64,000 nucleotides of DNA from Patescibacteria group bacterium (GCA_049322655.1 JBMORP010000002.1:172915-236914), one strand, 5' to 3'. Positions 428-26,080 are shown, counted from the stretch's first letter. Made by a program: numbers and translations. Notes: a model not told the origin generated them from the sequence alone.

Positions 428-429
428 TG

Positions 430-502
430 TGGACCACAGGAGAATCGAACTCCTGACCTTTGCAATGCGAATGCAACGCTCTACCAACTGAGCTAGTGGC
501 CC
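430..502 (-). tRNA. tRNA-Ala (anticodon CGC), no encoded CCA
   Basis: The reverse complement folds as a cloverleaf: GGGCCAC acceptor stem with a G3:U70 pair, GCTCAGTTGGTAGAGC D-arm, anticodon loop TTCGCAT and a GGTTCGATTCC T-arm. Confidence 0.85.
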
Positions 503-2391: not shown

Positions 2392-2437
2392 CTCATCAAA
2401 CTAGGCTTAAACTCATCTCTACCAATTAAGAGGTATA

Positions 2438-3406
2438 ATGAGTTTTATCTTTTCTATGCATAATCCCTATCTTGAACAAATTAACCAGCTATCAACAAAA
2501 ATTGCTGAAAATCAGGCTTTACTTACTGATCCTGATTTAGGTGAATTGGCTCAAGCGGAAATTACTGAGCTTGAAATTCAAAAAAAAGCCTTAGAAGACG
2601 CCGCTGAAGAGCTATTACAAGGCTCCAAAGGTAGTGAGAGTGGTGAGACAGATACTTCTAAATCTAGTGCTATTTTGGAAATAAGAGGTGGAGCTGGTGG
2701 TGATGAGGCTAAAATCTGGGCCAATGATTTGTTGCGCATGTATCTAAGGTTTATTGAGAACAATAACCTTAAAATGGAATACATCGATGACCTGGTAATC
2801 AAGATTCGTGGTCGTATCGAGTTAGGTGAAGAAACTCTTTATGCTTATGATTTATTCAAATATGAGTCAGGAGTTCACCGAGTCCAAAGAGTCCCTGAAA
2901 CAGAAGCCCAAGGTAGAATTCATACTTCGACAGCTTCAGTGGCTGTTTTGCCAGAAATTAAGGAGAATGCGATTGAAATTAGAGATGAAGATTTAGACTG
3001 GCAATTTATGCGAGCCGGTGGAGCTGGTGGCCAATCAGTGAATAAGACTAGTAGTGCTGTCCGTTTAACCCATACCCCCTCTGGAATTGTCGTAACTTCC
3101 AGTCAAGAGAGAAAACAAGCTCAAAATCGCCAAATTGCTTTGGAGTTACTTAGAGCCCAACTCTGGGAAATTGAAGAAGAAAAGAAACAAGCTGCTTTAG
3201 GAAATGCTCGAAAAGCCATCGGTCGTAACATGAGAGCTGAGAAGATTCGTACTTACAACTACCCTCAAAATCGAGTCACTGATCACCGGATTAATGTTTC
3301 TTGGCATAGCTTAGAAACTATTATTGAAGGCGACATTAAAAAAATGTTGCTAGAGGTGAGGCAAAAGCTAGAAACTCCAGAAGAAGAAACTAATCAGAGT
3401 GAGTAG
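2438..3406 (+). CDS. prfA: peptide chain release factor 1
   Basis: GGQ motif (RAGGAGGQSVNKT) and an RF1-type PxT tripeptide (PET) in VQRVPETEAQGRIHTS. Confidence 0.9.
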   Translation: MSFIFSMHNPYLEQINQLSTKIAENQALLTDPDLGELAQAEITELEIQKKALEDAAEELLQGSKGSESGETDTSKSSAILEIRGGAGGDEAKIWANDLLRMYLRFIENNNLKMEYIDDLVIKIRGRIELGEETLYAYDLFKYESGVHRVQRVPETEAQGRIHTSTASVAVLPEIKENAIEIRDEDLDWQFMRAGGAGGQSVNKTSSAVRLTHTPSGIVVTSSQERKQAQNRQIALELLRAQLWEIEEEKKQAALGNARKAIGRNMRAEKIRTYNYPQNRVTDHRINVSWHSLETIIEGDIKKMLLEVRQKLETPEEETNQSE

Positions 3407-3931
3407 TAAACTAAAAAAAACCTTTTCCTCACCCTAATCTCCCATTTTCTCCTAAAAAATCAACAAAGTCTTACCATAACTCAGACTGGCCTAACTGTAG
3501 CTAAAAAAACCATAAAAAATAACTTTTTAATATTTTTCCTGACCCAAACAACTTGACTAAGTCCTAATAATATGATATTATAGGATAATATTTTAAACTG
3601 CTCTTTAACATCCTACTGTAGGAAGACATTGGTTGTGATTAAGCCAAAAATCAATGCGATTTTTTACTTTTAATCACTCCCAAAAATCACAATCGATTTG
3701 CTTCCTACAATTTTACAGACCATATATTTCAGCGTCTGCTTTTCTTGAAGAGGATGTTTTTCTAACTTATAGATTTTTAAATGACTATTACTTATTATAT
3801 TTTTTATTTCATTTAAATCTAAGTTTTTTCATTGTCTTCAATAAAGCGGACGCTGAGATCTAGCTATTCGGCCAGATCACAGTCAGTGTAACCTGGAAGT
3901 CCGACTAAAAAACCAAGAAAGTATTTCAATC

Positions 3932-4984
3932 ATGAAACATCAGCTTAAAGTTGTAGGAATTCTGTTCCTCACTTTAGCCGTTTTCCTCTCCGCCTGTGCC
4001 CCTAGCGCTGGCGTTGCTCCGGCTGCTCCCGCGACCGGTAATGTCGAATCCTCCCCTGTTCTACCCGATGGGTCAGTTGGCCAACCGGCCGGCGTGTATG
4101 TTTACGCCGACCTCAAGCCGTATTTCGCCGACCCAATGGTCTCGGCTTGTATCGAAGCTATCGCCTACACAAGCATGACTTATGAAGAGCGCGGCGCTTA
4201 CTGCGTCCCACGCTACCTCAAGCCCAAAGCCCAAACCATGACGGCGGCAGAACTGTCCCAGTCCATGGGACTGGCCACGGTTTACGCCATCCGGCAGAAC
4301 GCCTGGCAAATTGCCACTCCTGAATCTGTAGCCCTGCCTTCCCTGTCCTGGCTGGGCCCAACTTTAATCGGTCTGGGGTATGCGCTTGGTGTAGGTACCA
4401 CCTATGCCTACATCGCTACTTCAGAAACCTATGCCGCGAAAGTGGCAAGTTGGGAAATGGAGGCGCTGACTCCGGAAACTCAAGTCATCGTCCTTGGGTA
4501 TGAAGGAGTCATCACTACCTCCTACCCCATGACTGGCGAAATCCCCAGCATTACTAGCTGGGAACAGGCAAATGCTGAGTGGGATAAGTTGTACGCAACC
4601 GCGTCAACTATTCCGTTGACAGCAACTGCCAACATCGGAATGGACCAAAAAACCTTCAAAGGTCCAGCTGGTTCAACCTTTACCCTGACCTATATCGGTT
4701 TATCCAGCATGTGCTACATGAACCTTTTCACCCATCTGATGTGGTGGGACGGGAACCAGTGGCAACATAAGATGTTCGAATCCAACATCAACCGGTCTGA
4801 TGGCCCTTGCAAGCCGTGGGACTTTGTGGACATTTTCAGACAACTAGCTGACAAAATCAGCGAATTTGCCAAAAAACTAACCACAGAGCAATGGTTTTCT
4901 AGCAATGCCTACAAGGTCATTGAAGACCTGATGTACTTCGCCTTTAAGATGATTACAACCATCCTCAAGGGCATGGTCCCGTAA
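3932..4984 (+). CDS. lipoprotein of unknown function encoded on a high-GC island
   Basis: Signal peptide with lipobox FLSAC. The coding DNA is visibly GC-rich (gcc/ggc/ccg-rich) unlike all neighbours. Confidence 0.7.
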   Translation: MKHQLKVVGILFLTLAVFLSACAPSAGVAPAAPATGNVESSPVLPDGSVGQPAGVYVYADLKPYFADPMVSACIEAIAYTSMTYEERGAYCVPRYLKPKAQTMTAAELSQSMGLATVYAIRQNAWQIATPESVALPSLSWLGPTLIGLGYALGVGTTYAYIATSETYAAKVASWEMEALTPETQVIVLGYEGVITTSYPMTGEIPSITSWEQANAEWDKLYATASTIPLTATANIGMDQKTFKGPAGSTFTLTYIGLSSMCYMNLFTHLMWWDGNQWQHKMFESNINRSDGPCKPWDFVDIFRQLADKISEFAKKLTTEQWFSSNAYKVIEDLMYFAFKMITTILKGMVP

Positions 4985-5057
4985 AGCAAATCGAGCGTGA
5001 ATCAGAAGTCTCGCTGTCGGTATCAACTGACAGCGGGGCTTCCCGCTCATATAAAAT

Positions 5058-5083
5058 ACACCACTTTAATAAGTGGTTTTTTT
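5058..5083. terminator. bidirectional rho-independent terminator between the convergent lipoprotein and MFS genes
   Basis: accact-ttaata-agtggt followed by a T7 run. Two further hairpins lie at 5012..5050. Confidence 0.6.
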
Positions 5084-6278
5084 AAGTCAATTTACCCAAT
5101 GAAGACAGTTGTTTATATCTGATTAATTGTGGCACCAATAACCCAATCATCACTAACCCCAGAATCCACGCAAACTCATTAGGAGAACTTTGTTCAATCA
5201 TGTCACCAATAAAATAAGCTAATAAAACAAATGGTAAATCAGATAATAACGCCATTGTTGATAAAGCAGTCGCTCGGTTTTTTGAGTCAATAAACTCATT
5301 TAATAATAAAGATTTCGAATTATTAAAAGTAGTCGAGCTACTAATTCTGATAAAGATCAAAAACATGCCCCCAATTGCTCCCACCCATTTGGCACCCAAG
5401 AAAGAAACCACCAAAAATAATGAAGCCAAAACAGCCAGTTTACCAGCAGAAAACCTAGCTTTTACTCTGGGATAGTAGTGAGCGGCTAAAGCCGCTACTA
5501 AATAACCAAAACCAAATAATAAGCCGACTTCTTTACCACCCAAACCGTATTCTCTAGCTTGAGAGATTCCCAAGATTTTAGCTGCAATCACATAACCTGC
5601 CGCAATAGTAATTAAAATGAAAGTAATTGAGCGGTTTTTTTTCTGAGCAAAAAGTTCTTTAAAACCAGTTAAGTTTTGTTTCAGATAGGTTTTAAAAGAA
5701 AAAACTTGTGAATCAATTTTTGGTTCAACTAAAAAGAAACTCAAACCGAGTGCCACCAAAGTAAAGATTAAAGTAACTACATAAGGTAAGGTTGGATCAA
5801 GATCGAACATCAAGCCACCCAAAATTGCCGAGATAAACAGTGCTAACCAACTAAGAGTCTCATTTTTAGCTACAACCTGCACAAATTGACCTTCATTTTT
5901 TTCGTCCTTTAAAGTGTCATATTGCAAAGATTCCAACGCACCTGACCATAAAGCCTGAGACAAACCTTGGATTAATCTAGCCACTAAAAACCACCAAAAA
6001 GTCTTGCCCACAATAATTAGTAAAAAAGAAATTGCACCAAAAACTCTTGATAGAATCAGGGTTTTCTTTCTGCCAACCACATCAGCAATTGCCCCGGTAG
6101 GAATTTCTAACAAGCTCCCAGCAATCGTGGTAGCAGCACCAATTAAAGCGACTTCTTTAAAATCTAGAAAACGCAAAAAATAAAATATCCAGATAGCAAT
6201 CGGAAAATAAAGTTCCCACTGAAACACTAATAACCAAGAAATCAGGATATTTCTTGAATACTTTAGTTTGGCAGTCAT
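5082..6278 (-). CDS. MFS transporter
   Basis: Twelve-TM-like hydrophobic profile and MFS-like loop motifs. Confidence 0.8.
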   Translation of the reverse strand: MTAKLKYSRNILISWLLVFQWELYFPIAIWIFYFLRFLDFKEVALIGAATTIAGSLLEIPTGAIADVVGRKKTLILSRVFGAISFLLIIVGKTFWWFLVARLIQGLSQALWSGALESLQYDTLKDEKNEGQFVQVVAKNETLSWLALFISAILGGLMFDLDPTLPYVVTLIFTLVALGLSFFLVEPKIDSQVFSFKTYLKQNLTGFKELFAQKKNRSITFILITIAAGYVIAAKILGISQAREYGLGGKEVGLLFGFGYLVAALAAHYYPRVKARFSAGKLAVLASLFLVVSFLGAKWVGAIGGMFLIFIRISSSTTFNNSKSLLLNEFIDSKNRATALSTMALLSDLPFVLLAYFIGDMIEQSSPNEFAWILGLVMIGLLVPQLIRYKQLSSLGKLT

Positions 6279-6282
6279 GTTT

Positions 6283-7590
6283 TTATAAAGATTCGATACC
6301 CTTTAACAACACCTCATCTTGTTCTGTCTCTGGATTATTTTTGATCTCAACATCCACAGGAATTCCCTCTTCATGAATCCATTCTCCTTCAGGCATTAAC
6401 CAACGACCAATTGTGATGTGAACTCCTCCACCATTAGACAATTCTCTTCTGTCCTGCACAGTTCCCTTGCCAAAAGTTCTTTCTCCCACTAGTTTTGCCC
6501 CAACATTGTCCTTTAATGCTCCAGCTACAATCTCAGAAGCAGAGGCGCTGCCTTTATTGACAAGCACCACTGTTGGAATGCCGACTAATCTAGCCTTACC
6601 TCTAGCACTAAAATCTCTGGTTTGAACTTTACCTTTTTGCGAAACAACTATCCCACTTTTAAAAAACTCACTAGCTACTGTAATAGAAGTATCAAAGAAA
6701 CCACCGGGATTATTTCTGACATCCAATACTATGCCTGAGAGAGTCGATTTATTGGCCAAAATCTTCTCGACAGCGTCATCCCATTCAGCCTCGGTTCTTT
6801 CACCAAACCTAGTTAATTTAAGATGAGCAACTTTTTTACCAGCATGTTCCACAAATTCTAATTCTACTGATTTAACAACAATCTCATCTCTGATGATTTC
6901 GATCTCAAAAGTCCCTCTTTCTTTATCGGTAGGTCGATAAAGAGTTAAAATAACTGGTTCTCCCTTGCCACCTCTAATACTATTAACTGCTTTATTTAAA
7001 GACCAACCAGTCGTATCTTCATCCAAACCAGTTTGCTGATCTTCAACATGAATAATCAAGTCTCCAGCTTCTACTCCAGCTTTTTGAGCTGGACTATCAT
7101 CAAGCGGAGCCACTACTGCCAAAGTATTATCAATATAACCAAGTTCAATACCCACTCCATAAAAACTACCAGCTAAATCCTCTCCGTTTCGTTGATTATC
7201 CTCTGGAGGTAAATAAGCAGTATAGGGATCACCCAATGAAGCAGTCATCCCAGCAATTGCTCCATGAACCATTTTTTCAGCATCAAGTTTTTCTGGTTCT
7301 AGGTATTCTTTTTCAAGATAACCCCATACTTCCCAAAAAGTATTAAAATTAACAGAATCATCTTGTGGCTTAGGATCTCCAGTTAGCCTTGAAGACTGCC
7401 TAGTTTGTTCTTTGGAAATTGAGCTAGCAATAAAAGCAACTTTTTCCAAACTAAAAGGTAATTTACCTGTTTTAGAAAATTGGAAACCAATTAACGCTCC
7501 TACCCACAACAATAAAATAACCACCACTGTATTGAGTAGGTTTTGCAGATTAAAAATCTGATTTTTTTTGGGTAAAGTAATTGATTTCAT
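6283..7590 (-). CDS. ctpA: carboxyl-terminal processing protease (S41)
   Basis: PDZ segment and S41 catalytic block GSASASEIVAGAL. Confidence 0.85.
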   Translation of the reverse strand: MKSITLPKKNQIFNLQNLLNTVVVILLLWVGALIGFQFSKTGKLPFSLEKVAFIASSISKEQTRQSSRLTGDPKPQDDSVNFNTFWEVWGYLEKEYLEPEKLDAEKMVHGAIAGMTASLGDPYTAYLPPEDNQRNGEDLAGSFYGVGIELGYIDNTLAVVAPLDDSPAQKAGVEAGDLIIHVEDQQTGLDEDTTGWSLNKAVNSIRGGKGEPVILTLYRPTDKERGTFEIEIIRDEIVVKSVELEFVEHAGKKVAHLKLTRFGERTEAEWDDAVEKILANKSTLSGIVLDVRNNPGGFFDTSITVASEFFKSGIVVSQKGKVQTRDFSARGKARLVGIPTVVLVNKGSASASEIVAGALKDNVGAKLVGERTFGKGTVQDRRELSNGGGVHITIGRWLMPEGEWIHEEGIPVDVEIKNNPETEQDEVLLKGIESL

Positions 7591-7637
7591 ATGAACGACT
7601 TATTGTAACCCTTCAGCCTCATCAGGTACAGAGAAAT

Positions 7638-9419
7638 TTATTTGACAGTCACACTTTTAGCTAGATTTCTTGGTTTATCAGGATCATTGCCTAATTTAAT
7701 CGCCAAGTAGTAAGCCAAAAGCTGAAAAGGAATAACCTTAGTAATTGGGTCAAGTTCTCCAAGCTCAGGTGCAACCAAATGCACATCAAAAAAATCATTG
7801 TTTTCTTGAGCAATACCGACTACCTTAGCACCTCTAGCCTTAACTTCCGCCAAAGCACTAATAACTTCATGTTGTTCCTGAATATCTCCTCCCACAATAC
7901 CAATTACAAAAGTGCCTTTTTCAATCAAAGCAATTACCCCATGTTTTAGTTCTCCAGCTGAAAAACCTTCAAAGTGCTTATAACTGATCTCCTTGATTTT
8001 TAAAGCACCCTCCAAAGCAGTATAAAAATGCTGATTTTTACCCAAAACAAAGACGTGTTCTTGATTGGCTAATTGTTGGGCTAGTTTTTTAAATACTGTT
8101 TGGTGATGGTGATCTGAAAAGTATGCTTGAAGTTGGTCAGCCAGTTGACGAATATTTTGTTGAGCTTGATCATATCTTCCCATGACTGTTTGAGCTAATA
8201 AATAACCCCAAACCAACTGAGACGTATAAGCTTTAGTGGAAGCAACACAAATTTCTGGACCTGATCTGGAAAAAAATTGGTAATCAGAAAATCTAGTCAA
8301 AGTTGAACCAACCATATTAACAATACTAGCCACCTCAACTTGTTTTTCTTTCAATTGTTCAATAACTGCTAACGTATCGGCTGTTTCTCCACTTTGACTA
8401 ACCGCAATCACCAAATCTTTTTGGGTAATTAGGGGCAAATAATTTGCTGATTCATAAGCTTTAAGTTCAAAAGCATTAATCCCAACCATCCTTAAAAACC
8501 TAGCAATTTGCCCAGCAGCGAAAGCCGCTGTACCAGCTCCCAGTGTATAAACTTTGTCAGCCATCTTGATTTTATTAACCAACTTAGAAAAATCTTGCTC
8601 ACTATAACTAGCTGCTTCGATTACCGTGTGTTGTTGCTCAAAAATCTCCTTGACCATAAAGTGCGGAAAGCCATCTTTATCTATCTTTTCTGCTTGTTGG
8701 GTTAAGAGATGTTTCTTAAAATTAAGTTTTTTGCCTGTTTTGACAGCAAACAATTGCACATTCCCATGACTAATTTTCACTAATTGGCCATCTAATACAT
8801 AAATTAGTTCAGGCACATTGCCCAATAAAGGCATCGTGTCAGAAGCCAAATAAACTTCTTGTCGGCCGACTCCCACTACCAACGGAGAACCTTGCCGAAC
8901 AGCAATAATTGTTTCGGTTAATTTATCCAAAACTACAAAAGTATTTCTGCCTGTTAACTGCAAAAAAGTTTGGCTAACAGCAACTCTCAAATCTTTAGTC
9001 TGCTGTAGCTGATAGTGCAGTAAATGTACAATTACCTCGGTATCGGTTTGGGTGGTAAATTTATAGCCAAGTTTTTTAAGTTGGTCTTTGAGTGGCAAAA
9101 AATTTTCAACAATACCATTTTGTACTACTGCAAATCTGCCATCAATTGATAAATGAGGGTGAGCATTATTCTTAGTCACGCCACCATGAGTTGCCCACCG
9201 AGTGTGACCAATCCCAAGCAAAGAAGGTTTTTTGTTTTTAGCAGCCAAACCAGTAATTTGGCCAGTTTTTTTATCAATAAAAATACCATGATCAGTAGTT
9301 AGAGCTACGCCCCAAGAGTCATAACCACGATACTCCATAGTCTTAAGCCCCGTAATAATTTTATTTGCTACTTGGGTTTGGTTGTTGAGATTACTACTGT
9401 AACCAATAATGCCACACAT
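7638..9419 (-). CDS. glmS: glutamine--fructose-6-phosphate aminotransferase
   Basis: MCGIIGY N-terminus and SIS domains. I trimmed the start to the Met preceding the catalytic Cys, because the longer ORF would bury Cys1. Confidence 0.95.
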   Translation of the reverse strand: MCGIIGYSSNLNNQTQVANKIITGLKTMEYRGYDSWGVALTTDHGIFIDKKTGQITGLAAKNKKPSLLGIGHTRWATHGGVTKNNAHPHLSIDGRFAVVQNGIVENFLPLKDQLKKLGYKFTTQTDTEVIVHLLHYQLQQTKDLRVAVSQTFLQLTGRNTFVVLDKLTETIIAVRQGSPLVVGVGRQEVYLASDTMPLLGNVPELIYVLDGQLVKISHGNVQLFAVKTGKKLNFKKHLLTQQAEKIDKDGFPHFMVKEIFEQQHTVIEAASYSEQDFSKLVNKIKMADKVYTLGAGTAAFAAGQIARFLRMVGINAFELKAYESANYLPLITQKDLVIAVSQSGETADTLAVIEQLKEKQVEVASIVNMVGSTLTRFSDYQFFSRSGPEICVASTKAYTSQLVWGYLLAQTVMGRYDQAQQNIRQLADQLQAYFSDHHHQTVFKKLAQQLANQEHVFVLGKNQHFYTALEGALKIKEISYKHFEGFSAGELKHGVIALIEKGTFVIGIVGGDIQEQHEVISALAEVKARGAKVVGIAQENNDFFDVHLVAPELGELDPITKVIPFQLLAYYLAIKLGNDPDKPRNLAKSVTVK

Positions 9420-9800
9420 GGTGTTCCCTTCTTTTTTGCAGACAAAACCTGCAAAAAACATTTGTTAAAAATGCTAGAACAAAGTAACTCCACCAAAAGC
9501 AGTGAATTCACTTAATACCTAGCTATAAAGGGAAAAATGAAGGGGTGTGAAGTTGTCTTTGGCCCAAAATTTACAGATTGGTTTTAAACTTCTTCTTGAG
9601 GTATACCCATACCTGAGGGTTTCCGCAGATGCTCTCTTTTGTGATTAGTAAAAGAAGCCCGATTGTTACCTTTTAAGGCAACCCCTCTTCCTCGTTTTCC
9701 GGGTTTCTATACAAAACCTGGACCACACGCTCTTTTTTGCAAGCAACATTTGCTCACCTTTGAAAGAAGCATAACAACCTCCAAGCAAAATGTCAAAAAC
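9420..9800 (-). promoter_or_regulatory. unusually long glmS 5' leader with GC-enriched structured core; possible glmS-ribozyme-like element
   Basis: The leader is about 380 nt in a compact genome. The segment cccggaaaACGAGGAaGAGGGG...CCCUC resembles the ACGAGGA / GGAGG...CCUCC core of the glmS ribozyme. A 10-bp hairpin lies just 5' of the RBS (9431..9457). Confidence 0.3.
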
Positions 9801-9807
9801 TCTGACT

Positions 9808-9839
9808 AAAATAAATTCCGCACCATCAAGGGTGCGGAA
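9808..9839 (-). terminator. rho-independent terminator after rpsR
   Basis: ttccgcacc-cttgat-ggtgcggaa followed by TTTATTTT on the minus strand. Confidence 0.6.
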
Positions 9840-9868
9840 CTCATTACTTACAAAATTGAAACAAACTT

Positions 9869-10066
9869 TTAAACAGTTTGAGTAAATGGTAACATCGCTA
9901 AGTGTCTAGCTCTCTTAATTGCCTTTTCCAAACGACGTTGTTGTTTTTGAGTTAAACCAGTCTTTGAACGTGGCACAATCATGCCTTGCTCAGTGACAAA
10001 TCTCTTCAACTCTTCTGGTCGAGTATAAGAGAAATCGGTTACTCTTGGTCTTCTTTTATTTAACAT
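9869..10066 (-). CDS. rpsR: ribosomal protein S18
   Basis: Sequence typical of S18. Confidence 0.9.
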
Positions 10067-10085
10067 AATTTATTCTTTCTAAAAT

Positions 10086-10544
10086 TTAAAATGGGATGTC
10101 GTCAGCAACATCTTCAACCTCTGCCACTTGGTCTTCAGCGACAGATCCTTCTGCTGGAGCAACAACAGCCTCACTACCTTCATCACTACTGGTGGAACCA
10201 CCCCTAGAATTACTAAGTAGCATCATGTTGTCGATTACAATCTCGGTGACTCTTCTATCTTCACCACTTTCGGTTTTCCAATCTCTAGTTTGAATTCTAC
10301 CTTCGACGTAAACCTTATCACCTTTGTGGAGTAATTGACCACAAATTTCAGCTAATTTTGACCAAGCAACGATATTATGAAAATCAACTCGTTCCTGTTT
10401 TTCGCCACCTTCAGCTGAAGTCCAGGATCTATTGGTAGCCAAACCAAAAGAACAAACAGCGGTGCTGTTTGGCGTAAAACGAAGATTTGGATCTCTGGTA
10501 AGATTTCCGATAAGCATAACTTTGTTTAAAGATCTAACTGACAT
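10086..10544 (-). CDS. ssb: single-stranded DNA-binding protein
   Basis: OB-fold SSB sequence with an acidic DDIPF tail. Confidence 0.9.
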   Translation of the reverse strand: MSVRSLNKVMLIGNLTRDPNLRFTPNSTAVCSFGLATNRSWTSAEGGEKQERVDFHNIVAWSKLAEICGQLLHKGDKVYVEGRIQTRDWKTESGEDRRVTEIVIDNMMLLSNSRGGSTSSDEGSEAVVAPAEGSVAEDQVAEVEDVADDIPF

Positions 10545-25080: not shown

Positions 25081-25728
25081 CTAGTTAGCGCTCTGAACTT
25101 TACCAATAGTCTGTCGACTTTGTTGAATTAACTGTGCTGTTTGTTGCTTCTTGGAACCAGCTGGTCCCACCGCTCCTTTTTTGGGGCTAGATGGTGGCGC
25201 AATCGAAGAAGACTGCTTAGCAGCCTCTTCTTTTTGTTTCTGAGCTTGCTTGGCTTCCTCTTCAGCTTTCTGCCGTTGCATTTTCTCCTGATATTTTTTT
25301 TGAGCTACTTGTTTTTGCTCATCAGTAAGTTTGTTGAATCTTTCTAAAACAGATTGCTTTTGTTGTTTTTCTTCTGGAGTATCCTCGTTTTTAATCTCTA
25401 GTAAACTATGAAGACTAAAAAATCCTTTCAGTTCATCAAGCACATCTTTAACTGCTCTTTTGCCTTCTTCTTTAATGGTATCAACTTCTCTTGGCGGTTG
25501 TTTTTGGTGTGGTGTTTCCTGAGAAACACCACCTTGTTGAATGGCTGAACCACCAGTCGTTTGTTGAGCTGCATTGCTGGTTTGTTGAGTCAATTGATGT
25601 TGCTGAGAAGCTCCAGCTAAAGCCTGTTGCTCTAGGTGTTCTTCGTTAAAATGGCCAAATCCAGAACGAAAGCCCCCTCCTTGCCTAGCAGCCATCCCTG
25701 GTTTTGATCCTGGCCCCGAACTCATCAT
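25081..25728 (-). CDS. Gln/Lys/Glu-rich low-complexity (disordered/coiled-coil) protein
   Basis: Intact ORF, translationally coupled to the upstream partner via a TAA-A-ATG junction. Confidence 0.5.
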   Translation of the reverse strand: MMSSGPGSKPGMAARQGGGFRSGFGHFNEEHLEQQALAGASQQHQLTQQTSNAAQQTTGGSAIQQGGVSQETPHQKQPPREVDTIKEEGKRAVKDVLDELKGFFSLHSLLEIKNEDTPEEKQQKQSVLERFNKLTDEQKQVAQKKYQEKMQRQKAEEEAKQAQKQKEEAAKQSSSIAPPSSPKKGAVGPAGSKKQQTAQLIQQSRQTIGKVQSAN

Positions 25729-25729
25729 T

Positions 25730-26080
25730 TTAAACCTTGGTATGTCCCAACTGTCTAATTTGGTACTGACTCTGTTCCTCTTGTTGATGGTGTTCTGTCT
25801 CGACTCGTTGTTCGTTTTGGGCTAACCGAGCCTGTTCTTGGGGAGTGTCACTAATTTTTTTCAAATTCTCGATTTGAGCTTGAATTTCCTCAGCATCTCT
25901 TTGCTTTTGCTGTTCTTCCAAAGCAATTATTTCTTGTTTTTTTTGTTCTTCGGCCACCGCTTCTGCTTGTTGCGATTCTTGATCACCATCAGCAGCTGGT
26001 TGACTGGCTCCAGCTCCCTTGGAATCTTGAAGTAGTTCTTCTAAAGCAGCTAATGGATCTTGTTGTTGTGGATCTGACAT
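25730..26080 (-). CDS. Gln/Glu-rich acidic low-complexity protein
   Basis: Intact ORF immediately upstream of 25081..25728 on the same strand. Confidence 0.5.
   Translation of the reverse strand: MSDPQQQDPLAALEELLQDSKGAGASQPAADGDQESQQAEAVAEEQKKQEIIALEEQQKQRDAEEIQAQIENLKKISDTPQEQARLAQNEQRVETEHHQQEEQSQYQIRQLGHTKV

What the first reader, a model, noticed from the sequence alone, without database searches (positions are those of the whole stretch)
3843..5060. Single-gene high-GC island encoding a lipoprotein inside a low-GC genome
The region from about 3843 to 5060 is strikingly GC-rich, with runs such as ccggccggcgtg and gcgcggcgcttactgcgtcccacgc. Everything else in the 64 kb is AT-rich. The island carries one gene for a lipobox (LSAC) lipoprotein with no recognisable domain. 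It is inserted between prfA and an MFS transporter and is followed by three hairpins or terminators. The steep compositional discontinuity at both ends argues for recent horizontal acquisition from a high-GC donor. If this organism is an epibiont, as many Patescibacteria are, a donor related to its host is conceivable. A chimeric assembly is an alternative.
Basis: seen in the sequence. Interest (0 to 1): 0.65.

Follow-up and report, generated by a model that had tools for sequence, protein, structure and literature searches.

The report
Old GC-rich orphan lipoprotein gene insertion
A single GC-rich gene for a fast-evolving surface lipoprotein of unknown fold really does sit in this AT-rich Patescibacteria genome, but it is an old, inherited insertion shared by a small clade of relatives, not a recent transfer or an assembly error.

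Summary
The GC island is real. The CDS at 3932-4984 has 52% GC against 36% for the rest of the window, and GC3 is 0.59 against 0.28 +/- 0.04 for 64 other ORFs. The gene encodes a lipobox protein (LSAC) under purifying selection (dN/dS 0.10-0.20). Eleven other independently assembled contigs, representing five further diverged lineages, carry it between prfA and the MFS gene. In all of them it shows the same GC excess, so a chimera is excluded. The two nearest relatives without it (Ca. Pacebacteria) have a precise empty site. The unit of about 1.55 kb (promoter, 345-nt structured leader, CDS, 3' hairpin, terminator) is therefore a clade-specific insertion. Synonymous sites are near saturation between carriers, so the insertion is old, not recent. 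No donor can be named: in billions of proteins only six orthologue clusters and two distant C-terminal-domain relatives exist. A non-stationary model fits decay from an ancestral GC3 of about 0.8 towards 0.29. However, the decay looks slower than in flanking genes, and the amino-acid usage (K>R) does not fit a high-GC donor, so active maintenance of the GC is not excluded. The gene is also a recombination mosaic. Its function is unknown; I infer a variable surface protein. Moderate interest.

The parts
3410..3540 (+). Decayed remnant of a small conserved ORF (70-83 aa) that follows prfA. It marks the left side of the insertion site.
   Evidence: The ORF is intact in L001, L015 and L016. It is interrupted in L009, and only a remnant (KKPFPHPNLPFS...) survives in the window.
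3553..3581 (+). Promoter of the cassette: TTGACT, 17 nt, TATTAT, with an upstream TG (extended -10).
   Evidence: It matches 10 of 12 consensus positions. The CTTGA...TGATATTATAGG core is invariant in all six lineages. It is absent from the empty-site relatives.
3589..3931 (+). Inferred 5' leader of about 345 nt. It is AT-rich upstream of 3843 and strongly structured.
   Evidence: MFE z-score is -6.9 in the window and -7.8 in L001. Long invariant blocks persist across lineages whose synonymous sites are near saturation. No Rfam family matches. The transcription start site is inferred, not measured.
3617..3709 (+). Leader hairpin A: a 23-bp basal helix (3617-3640 with 3685-3709) and a variable apical stem.
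   Evidence: 20 of 23 pairs are invariant and one is compensatory (G-C to A-U in L012). G-U pairs show that pairing works only on the sense RNA.
3728..3857 (+). Leader hairpin B: a 15-bp basal helix (3728-3742 with 3843-3857) plus 3 further pairs (3747-3749 with 3837-3839). It closes a long AT-rich, sequence-variable hairpin. Its 3' arm is where the GC-rich block begins.
   Evidence: Four pairs show compensatory changes, and 97.6% of cells are paired against 31-51% when the partners are slid. The interior re-folds as an extended hairpin in both the window and L001.
3858..3877 (+). Short hairpin C (ATCTAGC / GCCAGAT).
   Evidence: Read directly from the sequences. L001 has CCACTC/GAGTGG, L009 has CCATTC/GAATGG and L012 has CCATTT/AAATGG at the same place. 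Not formally counted, because the register differs in the alignment.
3932..4984 (+). CDS of the 350-aa orphan lipoprotein (X). This is the GC-rich gene.
   Evidence: dN/dS is 0.10-0.20. GC3 is 0.59. Six orthologue clusters exist, at 70-100% identity.
3932..3997 (+). Lipoprotein signal peptide with lipobox L-S-A-C (Cys22).
   Evidence: This is the only strongly hydrophobic stretch in the protein. A21 and C22 are invariant in all orthologues.
4598..4981 (+). C-terminal domain (about residues 223-350). It has two invariant cysteines (C261, C293) and is the exchangeable module.
4984..5000 (+). Invariant 3' box AAGCAAATCGAGCGTGA, directly after the stop codon.
   Evidence: The core AAGCAAATCGAG is invariant in all six lineages. 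The box is 15/17 complementary to the invariant leader segment 3687-3703 (I3). Its significance is unproven.
4993..5048 (+). Conserved long 3' UTR hairpin (outer stem 4993-4997 with 5044-5048; inner 17-bp stem 5006-5022 with 5027-5043).
   Evidence: 22 pairs are predicted, 7 of them with compensatory changes.
5060..5084 (.). Intrinsic terminator (ACCACTT-TAAT-AAGTGGT plus T7). It is bidirectional between X and the convergent MFS gene.
   Evidence: Called on both strands. Conserved in L001, L004 and L014.

Best explanation
The island is the coding part of a self-contained, monocistronic cassette of about 1.55 kb (window about 3540-5081).

Origin (shown): the cassette was inserted between two convergent genes (prfA plus a small ORF, and an MFS transporter) in the ancestor of a small Candidatus Pacebacteria (Patescibacteria) clade. 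It has been inherited at that site ever since.

Product: the cassette encodes an orphan, secreted, lipid-anchored protein. The lipobox Cys22 and four conserved cysteines are seen directly; two extracytoplasmic disulfides are inferred from them. The protein evolves several times faster than its neighbours, and its alleles are shuffled by intragenic recombination. I therefore infer an exposed surface protein under diversifying pressure, such as an adhesin, receptor or phage/host contact protein.

Expression (inferred from sequence): a near-consensus promoter drives a 345-nt leader with two long conserved hairpins. The transcript ends with a conserved long 3' hairpin plus a terminator. I infer that this architecture controls or stabilises the mRNA.

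Cause of the GC excess: it is mainly at synonymous sites. I consider it most likely the legacy of a foreign, more GC-rich origin, with GC3 of about 0.8 at the clade's common ancestor, that is still decaying slowly toward the genome's GC3 of about 0.29. The decay is possibly slowed by constraint on the mRNA.

Shown: reality of the island, age, insertion, purifying selection, mosaicism and RNA pairing. Inferred: foreign origin, surface role and function of the UTRs.
For: - Reality and position. Eleven other contigs from different samples and assemblers carry the gene between prfA and MFS. Gene GC is 0.49-0.52 against flanks of 0.36-0.40 (up to 0.44 in the short flanks of L012).
- Insertion. L015 (MFS 75% identical) and L016 (68% identical) keep the order hisS-rpmE-prfA-small ORF-MFS-S41-glmS with a 1-nt gap where the cassette would be.
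- Age. dS between carriers is 1.3-1.7, equal to that of flanking genes. The S/W state at 4-fold sites correlates only 0.02-0.26 between deep pairs.
- Coding. dN/dS is 0.10-0.20.
- Ongoing decay. Polarised synonymous changes on three shallow branches give S->W 47 against W->S 25 in X, compared with 31:35 and 45:49 in MFS and S41.
- Model fit. In a 2-state non-stationary ML model with six taxa, stationarity is rejected (2dlnL = 11.3). A model with equilibrium GC3 fixed at 0.29 and root GC3 of 0.81 fits as well as the free model. The most divergent lineage, L012, has the lowest GC3.
- Not the genome's own optimal codons. Ribosomal-protein genes avoid G3 (0.01-0.03), whereas X has G3 of 0.20 and C3 of 0.39 at 4-fold sites.
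- Surface and variable character. The lipobox is conserved, and the only hydrophobic segment is the signal peptide. dN is 3-15 times that of the flanking genes among close strains. Codons 223-350 of L004 are 68% identical to the window, against 88-92% upstream. Divergence from L014 jumps from 1-4% to 9-13% at the start of the GC block.
- Transcription unit. Promoter and terminator. Leader structure and covariation. 3' hairpin.
Against: - No donor or any homologue in a GC-rich organism was found among 5.8 billion and 1.8 billion proteins, or in viral, phage, plasmid and metagenome scans.
- Amino-acid usage is not that of a high-GC genome. Lys is 15-17 against Arg 5-8 in every orthologue, and GC1 is 0.48-0.52.
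- The promoter and leader are part of the same inserted unit but are AT-rich (about 0.30).
- The amelioration fit needs X's synonymous S/W turnover to be about 0.6-0.7 times that of the flanks.
- The S->W excess (1.9:1) is smaller than the roughly 3.3:1 expected from flank-derived rates (binomial p of about 0.015, computed by hand).
- With five taxa, the stationary and decaying models cannot be told apart.
- Mosaic recombination violates the single-tree assumption of the ML model.
- No mobility gene, tRNA or target duplication flanks the cassette.
Confidence: 0.55

Rival explanations
1. The GC-rich codon usage is actively maintained rather than left over. The cause would be one of three: selection on the mRNA (stability, structure, avoidance of AU-rich cleavage or termination signals in an unusually structured transcript); GC-biased gene conversion in a recombination hotspot; or repeated re-import of alleles from an unsampled, more GC-rich pool. 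The insertion itself would still be old.
For: - GC3 is 0.54-0.60 in all six lineages and in all divergent allele classes, despite near-saturated synonymous divergence.
- Synonymous S/W turnover appears slower than in flanking genes, and the S->W excess is weaker than neutral flank rates predict.
- K>R and a normal GC1 argue against a very GC-rich donor.
- The AT-rich leader lies in the same inserted unit.
- The gene is demonstrably a recombination mosaic.
- The transcript has conserved long hairpins at both ends.
Against: - With six taxa a stationary composition is rejected, and pure decay toward 0.29 fits as well as the free model.
- There is a net S->W flux on all three shallow branches.
- The MFS and S41 genes also carry recombination tracts but have normal GC3, which argues against biased conversion.
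- Synonymous sites in X show no conserved blocks: third-position identity is a flat 0.45-0.58 along the gene. This argues against strong site-specific RNA structure constraint.
Confidence: 0.27
2. Recent horizontal acquisition from a high-GC donor, possibly the host.
For: The gene shows a strong compositional and codon-usage deviation and is absent from the nearest non-carrier relatives.
Against: - The same gene sits at the same site in lineages whose flanking proteins are only 79-86% identical and whose dS is 1.3-1.7.
- No donor homologue exists in any searched collection.
Confidence: 0.03
3. Assembly or binning chimera: a fragment of a GC-rich organism spliced into an AT-rich contig.
For: There is an abrupt GC change. 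One related MAG contig (L018) breaks inside the MFS gene next to where X would lie.
Against: - The junctions are reproduced in eleven other contigs from different runs and assemblers. These carry sequence-diverged copies together with co-diverged flanks.
- The conserved promoter and leader are continuous with the CDS.
Confidence: 0.01
4. The GC excess reflects translational selection in an extremely highly expressed major surface protein (optimal C-ending codons). No foreign origin would be needed.
For: - C-ending codons are preferred in all two-fold pyrimidine boxes (0.64 against 0.20-0.32), while GAA is retained.
- The promoter is strong, and the structured UTRs resemble those of abundant surface-protein mRNAs.
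Against: - Ribosomal-protein and ssb genes in the same window show no such shift. They avoid G-ending codons (G3 0.01-0.03), whereas X is enriched in CTG, CCG, CGG and GCG.
- The gene is an insertion with no ancestor at the site.
Confidence: 0.08

Closest known systems
Compositionally atypical, horizontally acquired single-gene islets undergoing amelioration (Lawrence and Ochman model; cited from my own knowledge)
   Same: - The deviation in GC3 and codon usage is confined to one gene.
- There is a presence/absence polymorphism with a precise empty site in relatives.
- There is a net S->W flux toward the host composition.
   Different: - There is no mobility gene, tRNA or direct repeat at the borders.
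- No donor homologue exists.
- The anomaly has survived near-saturating synonymous divergence.
- Part of the inserted unit (promoter and leader) has native AT-rich composition.
- Amino-acid usage is not donor-like.
Variable surface lipoproteins of AT-rich bacteria, such as Borrelia VlsE (GC-rich expression locus in a 28% GC genome) and OspC (mosaic alleles); cited from my own knowledge
   Same: - It is a lipobox surface protein whose gene is markedly more GC-rich than its AT-rich genome.
- Its alleles are recombination mosaics.
- It evolves faster than its neighbours.
   Different: - There are no silent cassettes or paralogues in the 64 kb, and only one copy was found per genome in protein searches.
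- The coding strand is C-rich rather than G-rich (GC skew -0.1 to -0.18).
- There is no sequence or fold similarity.
- Overall dN/dS is 0.1-0.2.
Long structured 5' leaders that stabilise mRNAs of abundant surface proteins (S-layer genes, ompA), and long double-stranded hairpins processed by RNase III; cited from my own knowledge
   Same: - It is a monocistronic surface-protein gene with a near-consensus promoter.
- The leader is several hundred nucleotides long and dominated by long stable hairpins.
- A protective 3' hairpin is followed by a terminator.
   Different: - No expression, half-life or processing data exist.
- Hairpin A is invariant in sequence on both arms, which suggests sequence-specific recognition and not only stability.
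- No Rfam family matches.

Membership tests
Bacterial lipoprotein (Lgt/LspA substrate) | N-terminal signal peptide with a basic n-region and a hydrophobic h-region | tested here: met
   In MKHQLKVVGILFLTLAVFL, residues K2 and K6 are basic. Kyte-Doolittle 19-residue means reach 2.3 only over residues 1-33.
Bacterial lipoprotein (Lgt/LspA substrate) | Lipobox [LVI][ASTVI][GAS]C at the end of the h-region, with a conserved Cys | tested here: met
   The lipobox is L19-S20-A21-C22. A21 and C22 are invariant in all six orthologue clusters.
Bacterial lipoprotein (Lgt/LspA substrate) | The genome encodes Lgt and LspA, and the protein is actually lipidated | not testable with these tools
   Only 64 kb of the genome is available. 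Eight membrane-protein ORFs scanned with Pfam were not Lgt or LspA. Lipidation needs experiment.
Horizontally acquired genomic islet | Composition and codon usage deviate from the host genome | tested here: met
   GC3 is 0.59 against 0.28 +/- 0.04.
Horizontally acquired genomic islet | Absent from close relatives at an otherwise syntenic site | tested here: met
   Empty sites are seen in L015 and L016.
Horizontally acquired genomic islet | Homologues in a plausible donor clade, with phylogenetic incongruence | tested here: not met
   Only six orthologue clusters plus P0007 and P0008 were found. P0007 and P0008 are short contigs with gene GC of 0.41-0.49. Nothing was found in phages, plasmids, viral or metagenome scans.
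Horizontally acquired genomic islet | Mobility signatures at the borders (integrase, tRNA, direct repeats) | tested here: not met
   No tRNA is nearby; the nearest is at 429-502. There are no convincing flanking direct repeats. The neighbours are housekeeping genes.
Cassette-based antigenic variation locus (vls-like) | Silent donor cassettes or paralogous copies for gene conversion | tested here: not met
   blastn and tblastn of X against the rest of the 64-kb window find nothing. There is one cluster per genome in the protein search. The rest of the genome was not available.
Any described RNA family (Rfam 15) for the leader or 3' UTR | Match to a covariance model at the gathering score | tested here: not met
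   There is no hit at the gathering score. The best sub-threshold hits are microRNA-precursor and sRNA models, well below their gathering scores, and are most likely chance or generic long-hairpin matches.
Any described protein family or fold | Significant profile or structural match | tested here: not met

The most novel reading that the evidence does not exclude
The GC-rich coding sequence and the invariant long hairpins at both ends of the transcript form one designed expression module. The module would include a possible pairing between the invariant leader segment 3687-3703 and the invariant box after the stop codon. In this reading, an AT-rich, ultra-small bacterium keeps one variable surface-lipoprotein mRNA compositionally 'foreign' by selection. 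The purpose could be an unusually long-lived or RNase-gated mRNA, or allele exchange. The leader would be a new cis-regulatory RNA class, with a counterpart upstream of the distant homologues P0007 and P0008.
Probability: 0.2. Interest if true: 0.65.

Novelty: new member of a known kind. Interest (0 to 1): 0.4.

Why it matters
This case shows that a sharp GC island in a metagenome-assembled genome need not be either an artefact or a recent transfer. The anomaly here has persisted across lineages separated by near-saturated synonymous divergence. It also flags a clade-restricted, rapidly evolving, recombining surface lipoprotein in Candidatus Pacebacteria. Such a protein is a natural candidate for contact with hosts, phages or surfaces in a group whose lifestyle is largely unknown. 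The gene also carries an uncharacterised, strongly conserved structured leader and 3' UTR. If the GC content proves to be actively maintained, the locus would be a compact natural test case for selection on synonymous composition in a genome with otherwise weak codon selection.

Tried and rejected
- Homology: I searched with the full protein, with a profile of the C-terminal domain and with an exhaustive HMMER pass. Only the orthologues and two short distant relatives came back. Scans of metagenome, viral, phage and plasmid collections found nothing.
- My own saturation argument: I first argued that saturation makes neutral amelioration impossible. The explicit non-stationary ML model showed this was too strong: decay from a root GC3 of about 0.8 fits. 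I therefore downgraded 'actively maintained GC' to a rival explanation.
- Translational selection: rejected as the main cause, because ribosomal-protein genes use the opposite third-base preferences.
- Amino-acid composition alone: rejected, because GC3 carries most of the excess.
- Overlapping ncRNA or antisense gene: rejected. dN/dS is 0.1-0.2, and synonymous divergence is flat and near-saturated along the gene.
- vls-like cassettes: none in the window.
- A terminator reading of CAGAC...GTCTG plus T-run in the leader: dropped, because that pairing is not conserved in L001, whereas the long-range helix B is.
- A 14-nt complementarity between the leader (3702-3715) and codons 5-10: not conserved in the orthologues, judged to be chance (I5).
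- Outgroup P0027 had lost synteny, and P0012's contig ends before the site. Neither was informative.

Full report
**Observation.** The compositional anomaly is real and unique in the window. Overall GC is 0.367. 300-nt windows have a mean of 0.367 (sd 0.043) and peak at 0.60 around 4001. Apart from one window at 25551 (0.48), every window above 0.47 lies between 3801 and about 4850. The region holds one ORF (3932-4984, 350 aa) with a classical lipoprotein signal peptide and the lipobox LSAC. It lies between prfA (PCRF + RF-1 domains) and a convergent MFS_1 transporter.

By codon position, the excess is mainly synonymous. GC3 is 0.59 against 0.28 +/- 0.04 in 64 other ORFs. GC2 is raised (0.46 against 0.34) because the protein is rich in Ala, Thr, Pro and Ser. 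GC1 is normal. GC3 is uniformly high along the CDS. The apparent 5'-to-3' decline in total GC comes from amino-acid composition.

**It is a real protein-coding gene, and it is not a chimera.** A search of 5.8 billion proteins found six clusters at 70-100% identity. One of them is the window's own record, a Patescibacteria-group MAG. Looking up their contigs gave eleven other loci from different samples and assemblers. Wherever flanks are present, the gene lies between prfA and the MFS gene, within the order hisS-rpmE-prfA-X-MFS-S41 protease-(glmS)-rpsR-ssb-rpsF. In every one the gene has 49-52% GC, against about 36-40% in most flanks and up to 0.44 in the short flanks of L012. Pairwise dN/dS is 0.10-0.20. 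Independent assemblies of diverged copies with co-diverged flanks exclude an assembly chimera.

**It is an insertion, but an old one.** MFS homologues name the clade Candidatus Pacebacteria. The two closest lineages without X (L015 with MFS 75% identical, L016 with 68%) keep the same gene order. In them, the small ORF that follows prfA abuts the MFS stop codon with a 1-nt gap. There is no X, no promoter and no leader. The inserted unit therefore runs from about 3540 to 5081 in the window. The small ORF is intact in carrier L001 but decayed in L009 and in the window.

Between carrier lineages, synonymous divergence is 1.3-1.7 in X, the same as in prfA, MFS, S41 and glmS. Flanking proteins are only 79-86% identical. 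The acquisition therefore predates a substantial radiation, and 'recent' is wrong.

**Why is it still GC-rich?** I first thought that saturation ruled out neutral amelioration. I then tested this explicitly, in three ways.

- Polarised changes. On the three shallow branches, synonymous changes are S->W 47 against W->S 25 in X. The flanks are balanced (31:35 and 45:49). X is therefore losing GC.
- Model fit. In a two-state non-stationary likelihood model with six taxa, stationarity is rejected (2dlnL = 11.3). Decay from a root GC3 of about 0.8 toward the genome value of 0.29 fits as well as the free model. With five taxa the models cannot be separated.
- Rate. The fit requires S/W turnover in X to be about 0.6-0.7 times that of the flanks. 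The observed S->W excess (1.9:1) is weaker than the roughly 3.3:1 expected from flank rates.

Several facts fit a high-GC donor poorly:

- Every orthologue has 15-17 Lys but only 5-8 Arg, and GC1 is about 0.5.
- The promoter and leader of the same inserted unit are AT-rich.
- No homologue exists in any GC-rich organism.
- The only distant relatives, P0007 and P0008 (C-terminal domain, 28-31% identity), lie on short contigs with gene GC of 0.41-0.49.

Translational selection is unlikely. Ribosomal-protein genes here prefer T and avoid G at four-fold sites (G3 0.01-0.03), whereas X is enriched in both C- and G-ending codons.

My reading is a legacy of foreign origin with slow decay (about 0.55). 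Active maintenance by selection, biased conversion or allele import is a serious rival (about 0.27).

Among close strains, X's dN is 3-15 times that of its neighbours. The gene is also a mosaic:

- L004 is 88-92% nucleotide-identical to the window over codons 23-222 but 68% over codons 223-350.
- L007 shows the reverse pattern, 85-90% and then 94%.
- Against L014, divergence jumps from 1-4% in the leader to 9-13% at the start of the GC block. It returns to 1-3% after the gene.

This is the behaviour of an exposed, diversifying surface protein. That role is inferred, not shown.

**The transcription unit.** A near-consensus promoter (TTGACT-17-TATTAT with an upstream TG, 3553-3581) is conserved in all carriers. 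The inferred 345-nt leader folds far better than shuffled sequence (z = -6.9 in the window, -7.8 in L001). It contains two long hairpins:

- Hairpin A (3617-3709) has a 23-bp basal helix that is almost invariant on both arms.
- Hairpin B (3728-3857) has a 15+3-bp basal helix that closes an AT-rich, sequence-variable but consistently paired hairpin.

Across the two hairpins, 97.6% of cells pair, against 31-51% when partners are slid. Five pairs show compensatory changes. G-U pairs place the structure on the sense RNA.

The sharp left edge of the 'island' at 3843 is the 3' arm of hairpin B, inside the cassette. After the stop codon come an invariant box, a 22-bp hairpin with seven compensatory pairs, and a bidirectional terminator. 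The invariant 3' box is 15/17 complementary to the invariant 3' arm of hairpin A. This could be chance and cannot be tested by covariation. No Rfam family matches.

**Verdict.** The gene is an inserted, compositionally foreign gene, but the insertion is ancient and vertically inherited, with no identifiable donor and no chimerism. It is a new member of a known kind: a laterally acquired orphan surface-lipoprotein islet. Two features deserve follow-up: the unusually persistent GC3 anomaly and the conserved, heavily structured UTRs.

Noticed in passing
window 3589-3931 and 4984-5084: The X mRNA has conserved long hairpins at both ends: hairpins A and B in the leader, and one 22-bp hairpin in the 3' UTR. 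None matches any Rfam family. The invariant leader segment 3687-3703 is 15/17 complementary to the invariant box 4984-5000, directly after the stop codon.
   Followed up: partly
window 9539-9742 (-): A glmS ribozyme (RF00234, 42 bits against a gathering score of 37) lies upstream of glmS (7638-9461) in this Patescibacteria genome. Carrier lineage L001 lacks glmS at this position.
   Followed up: no
window about 3410-3540; L001 9400-9651; L015 7199-7435; L016 7189-7401: A small conserved ORF (70-83 aa, no Pfam match) overlaps the prfA stop codon. It is intact in L001, L015 and L016 but decayed in the window and in L009. It is therefore being lost in some lineages that carry the insertion.
   Followed up: partly
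window 2400-10500 compared with L014 and L004: Divergence between close strains is mosaic. It is 1-3% over prfA, the leader and glmS, but 9-20% over X, most of MFS, S41 and the region after 9400. This indicates frequent homologous recombination tracts in this population.
   Followed up: partly
L010 1-240 and L011 188-351: The two distant homologues of the X C-terminal domain (P0007, P0008) also sit in monocistronic units. They share their own conserved leader of about 200 nt (CATTGGTTTC..., CTGC.GAGGCGGCGTTGCC..AAGCAG) and a GC-rich terminator.
   Followed up: no
L013 and L014 (CAYPPX010000002.1, CAYSQA010000001.1): These public MAG records are titled 'uncultured Pseudomonadales bacterium'. 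Their gene content, 36-37% GC and closest named homologues are Candidatus Pacebacteria, so the records are probably mislabelled.
   Followed up: no
L018 (JADLGG010000067.1) 5772-6745: This related Pacebacteria MAG contig ends inside the MFS gene, just before the position where X would lie. This may be an assembly or binning break at the compositional island.
   Followed up: no
window 429-502 (-): A tRNA-Ala(CGC), which reads only GCG, is present in a 37% GC genome where GCG makes up 5% of Ala codons.
   Followed up: no
window 25081-26080 (-): This is the second-highest GC spot in the window (0.48). It comes from two ORFs with very high GC1 (0.61 and 0.70) and Gly/Ala-rich, low-complexity N-termini. 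The cause is amino-acid composition, not GC3.
   Followed up: no
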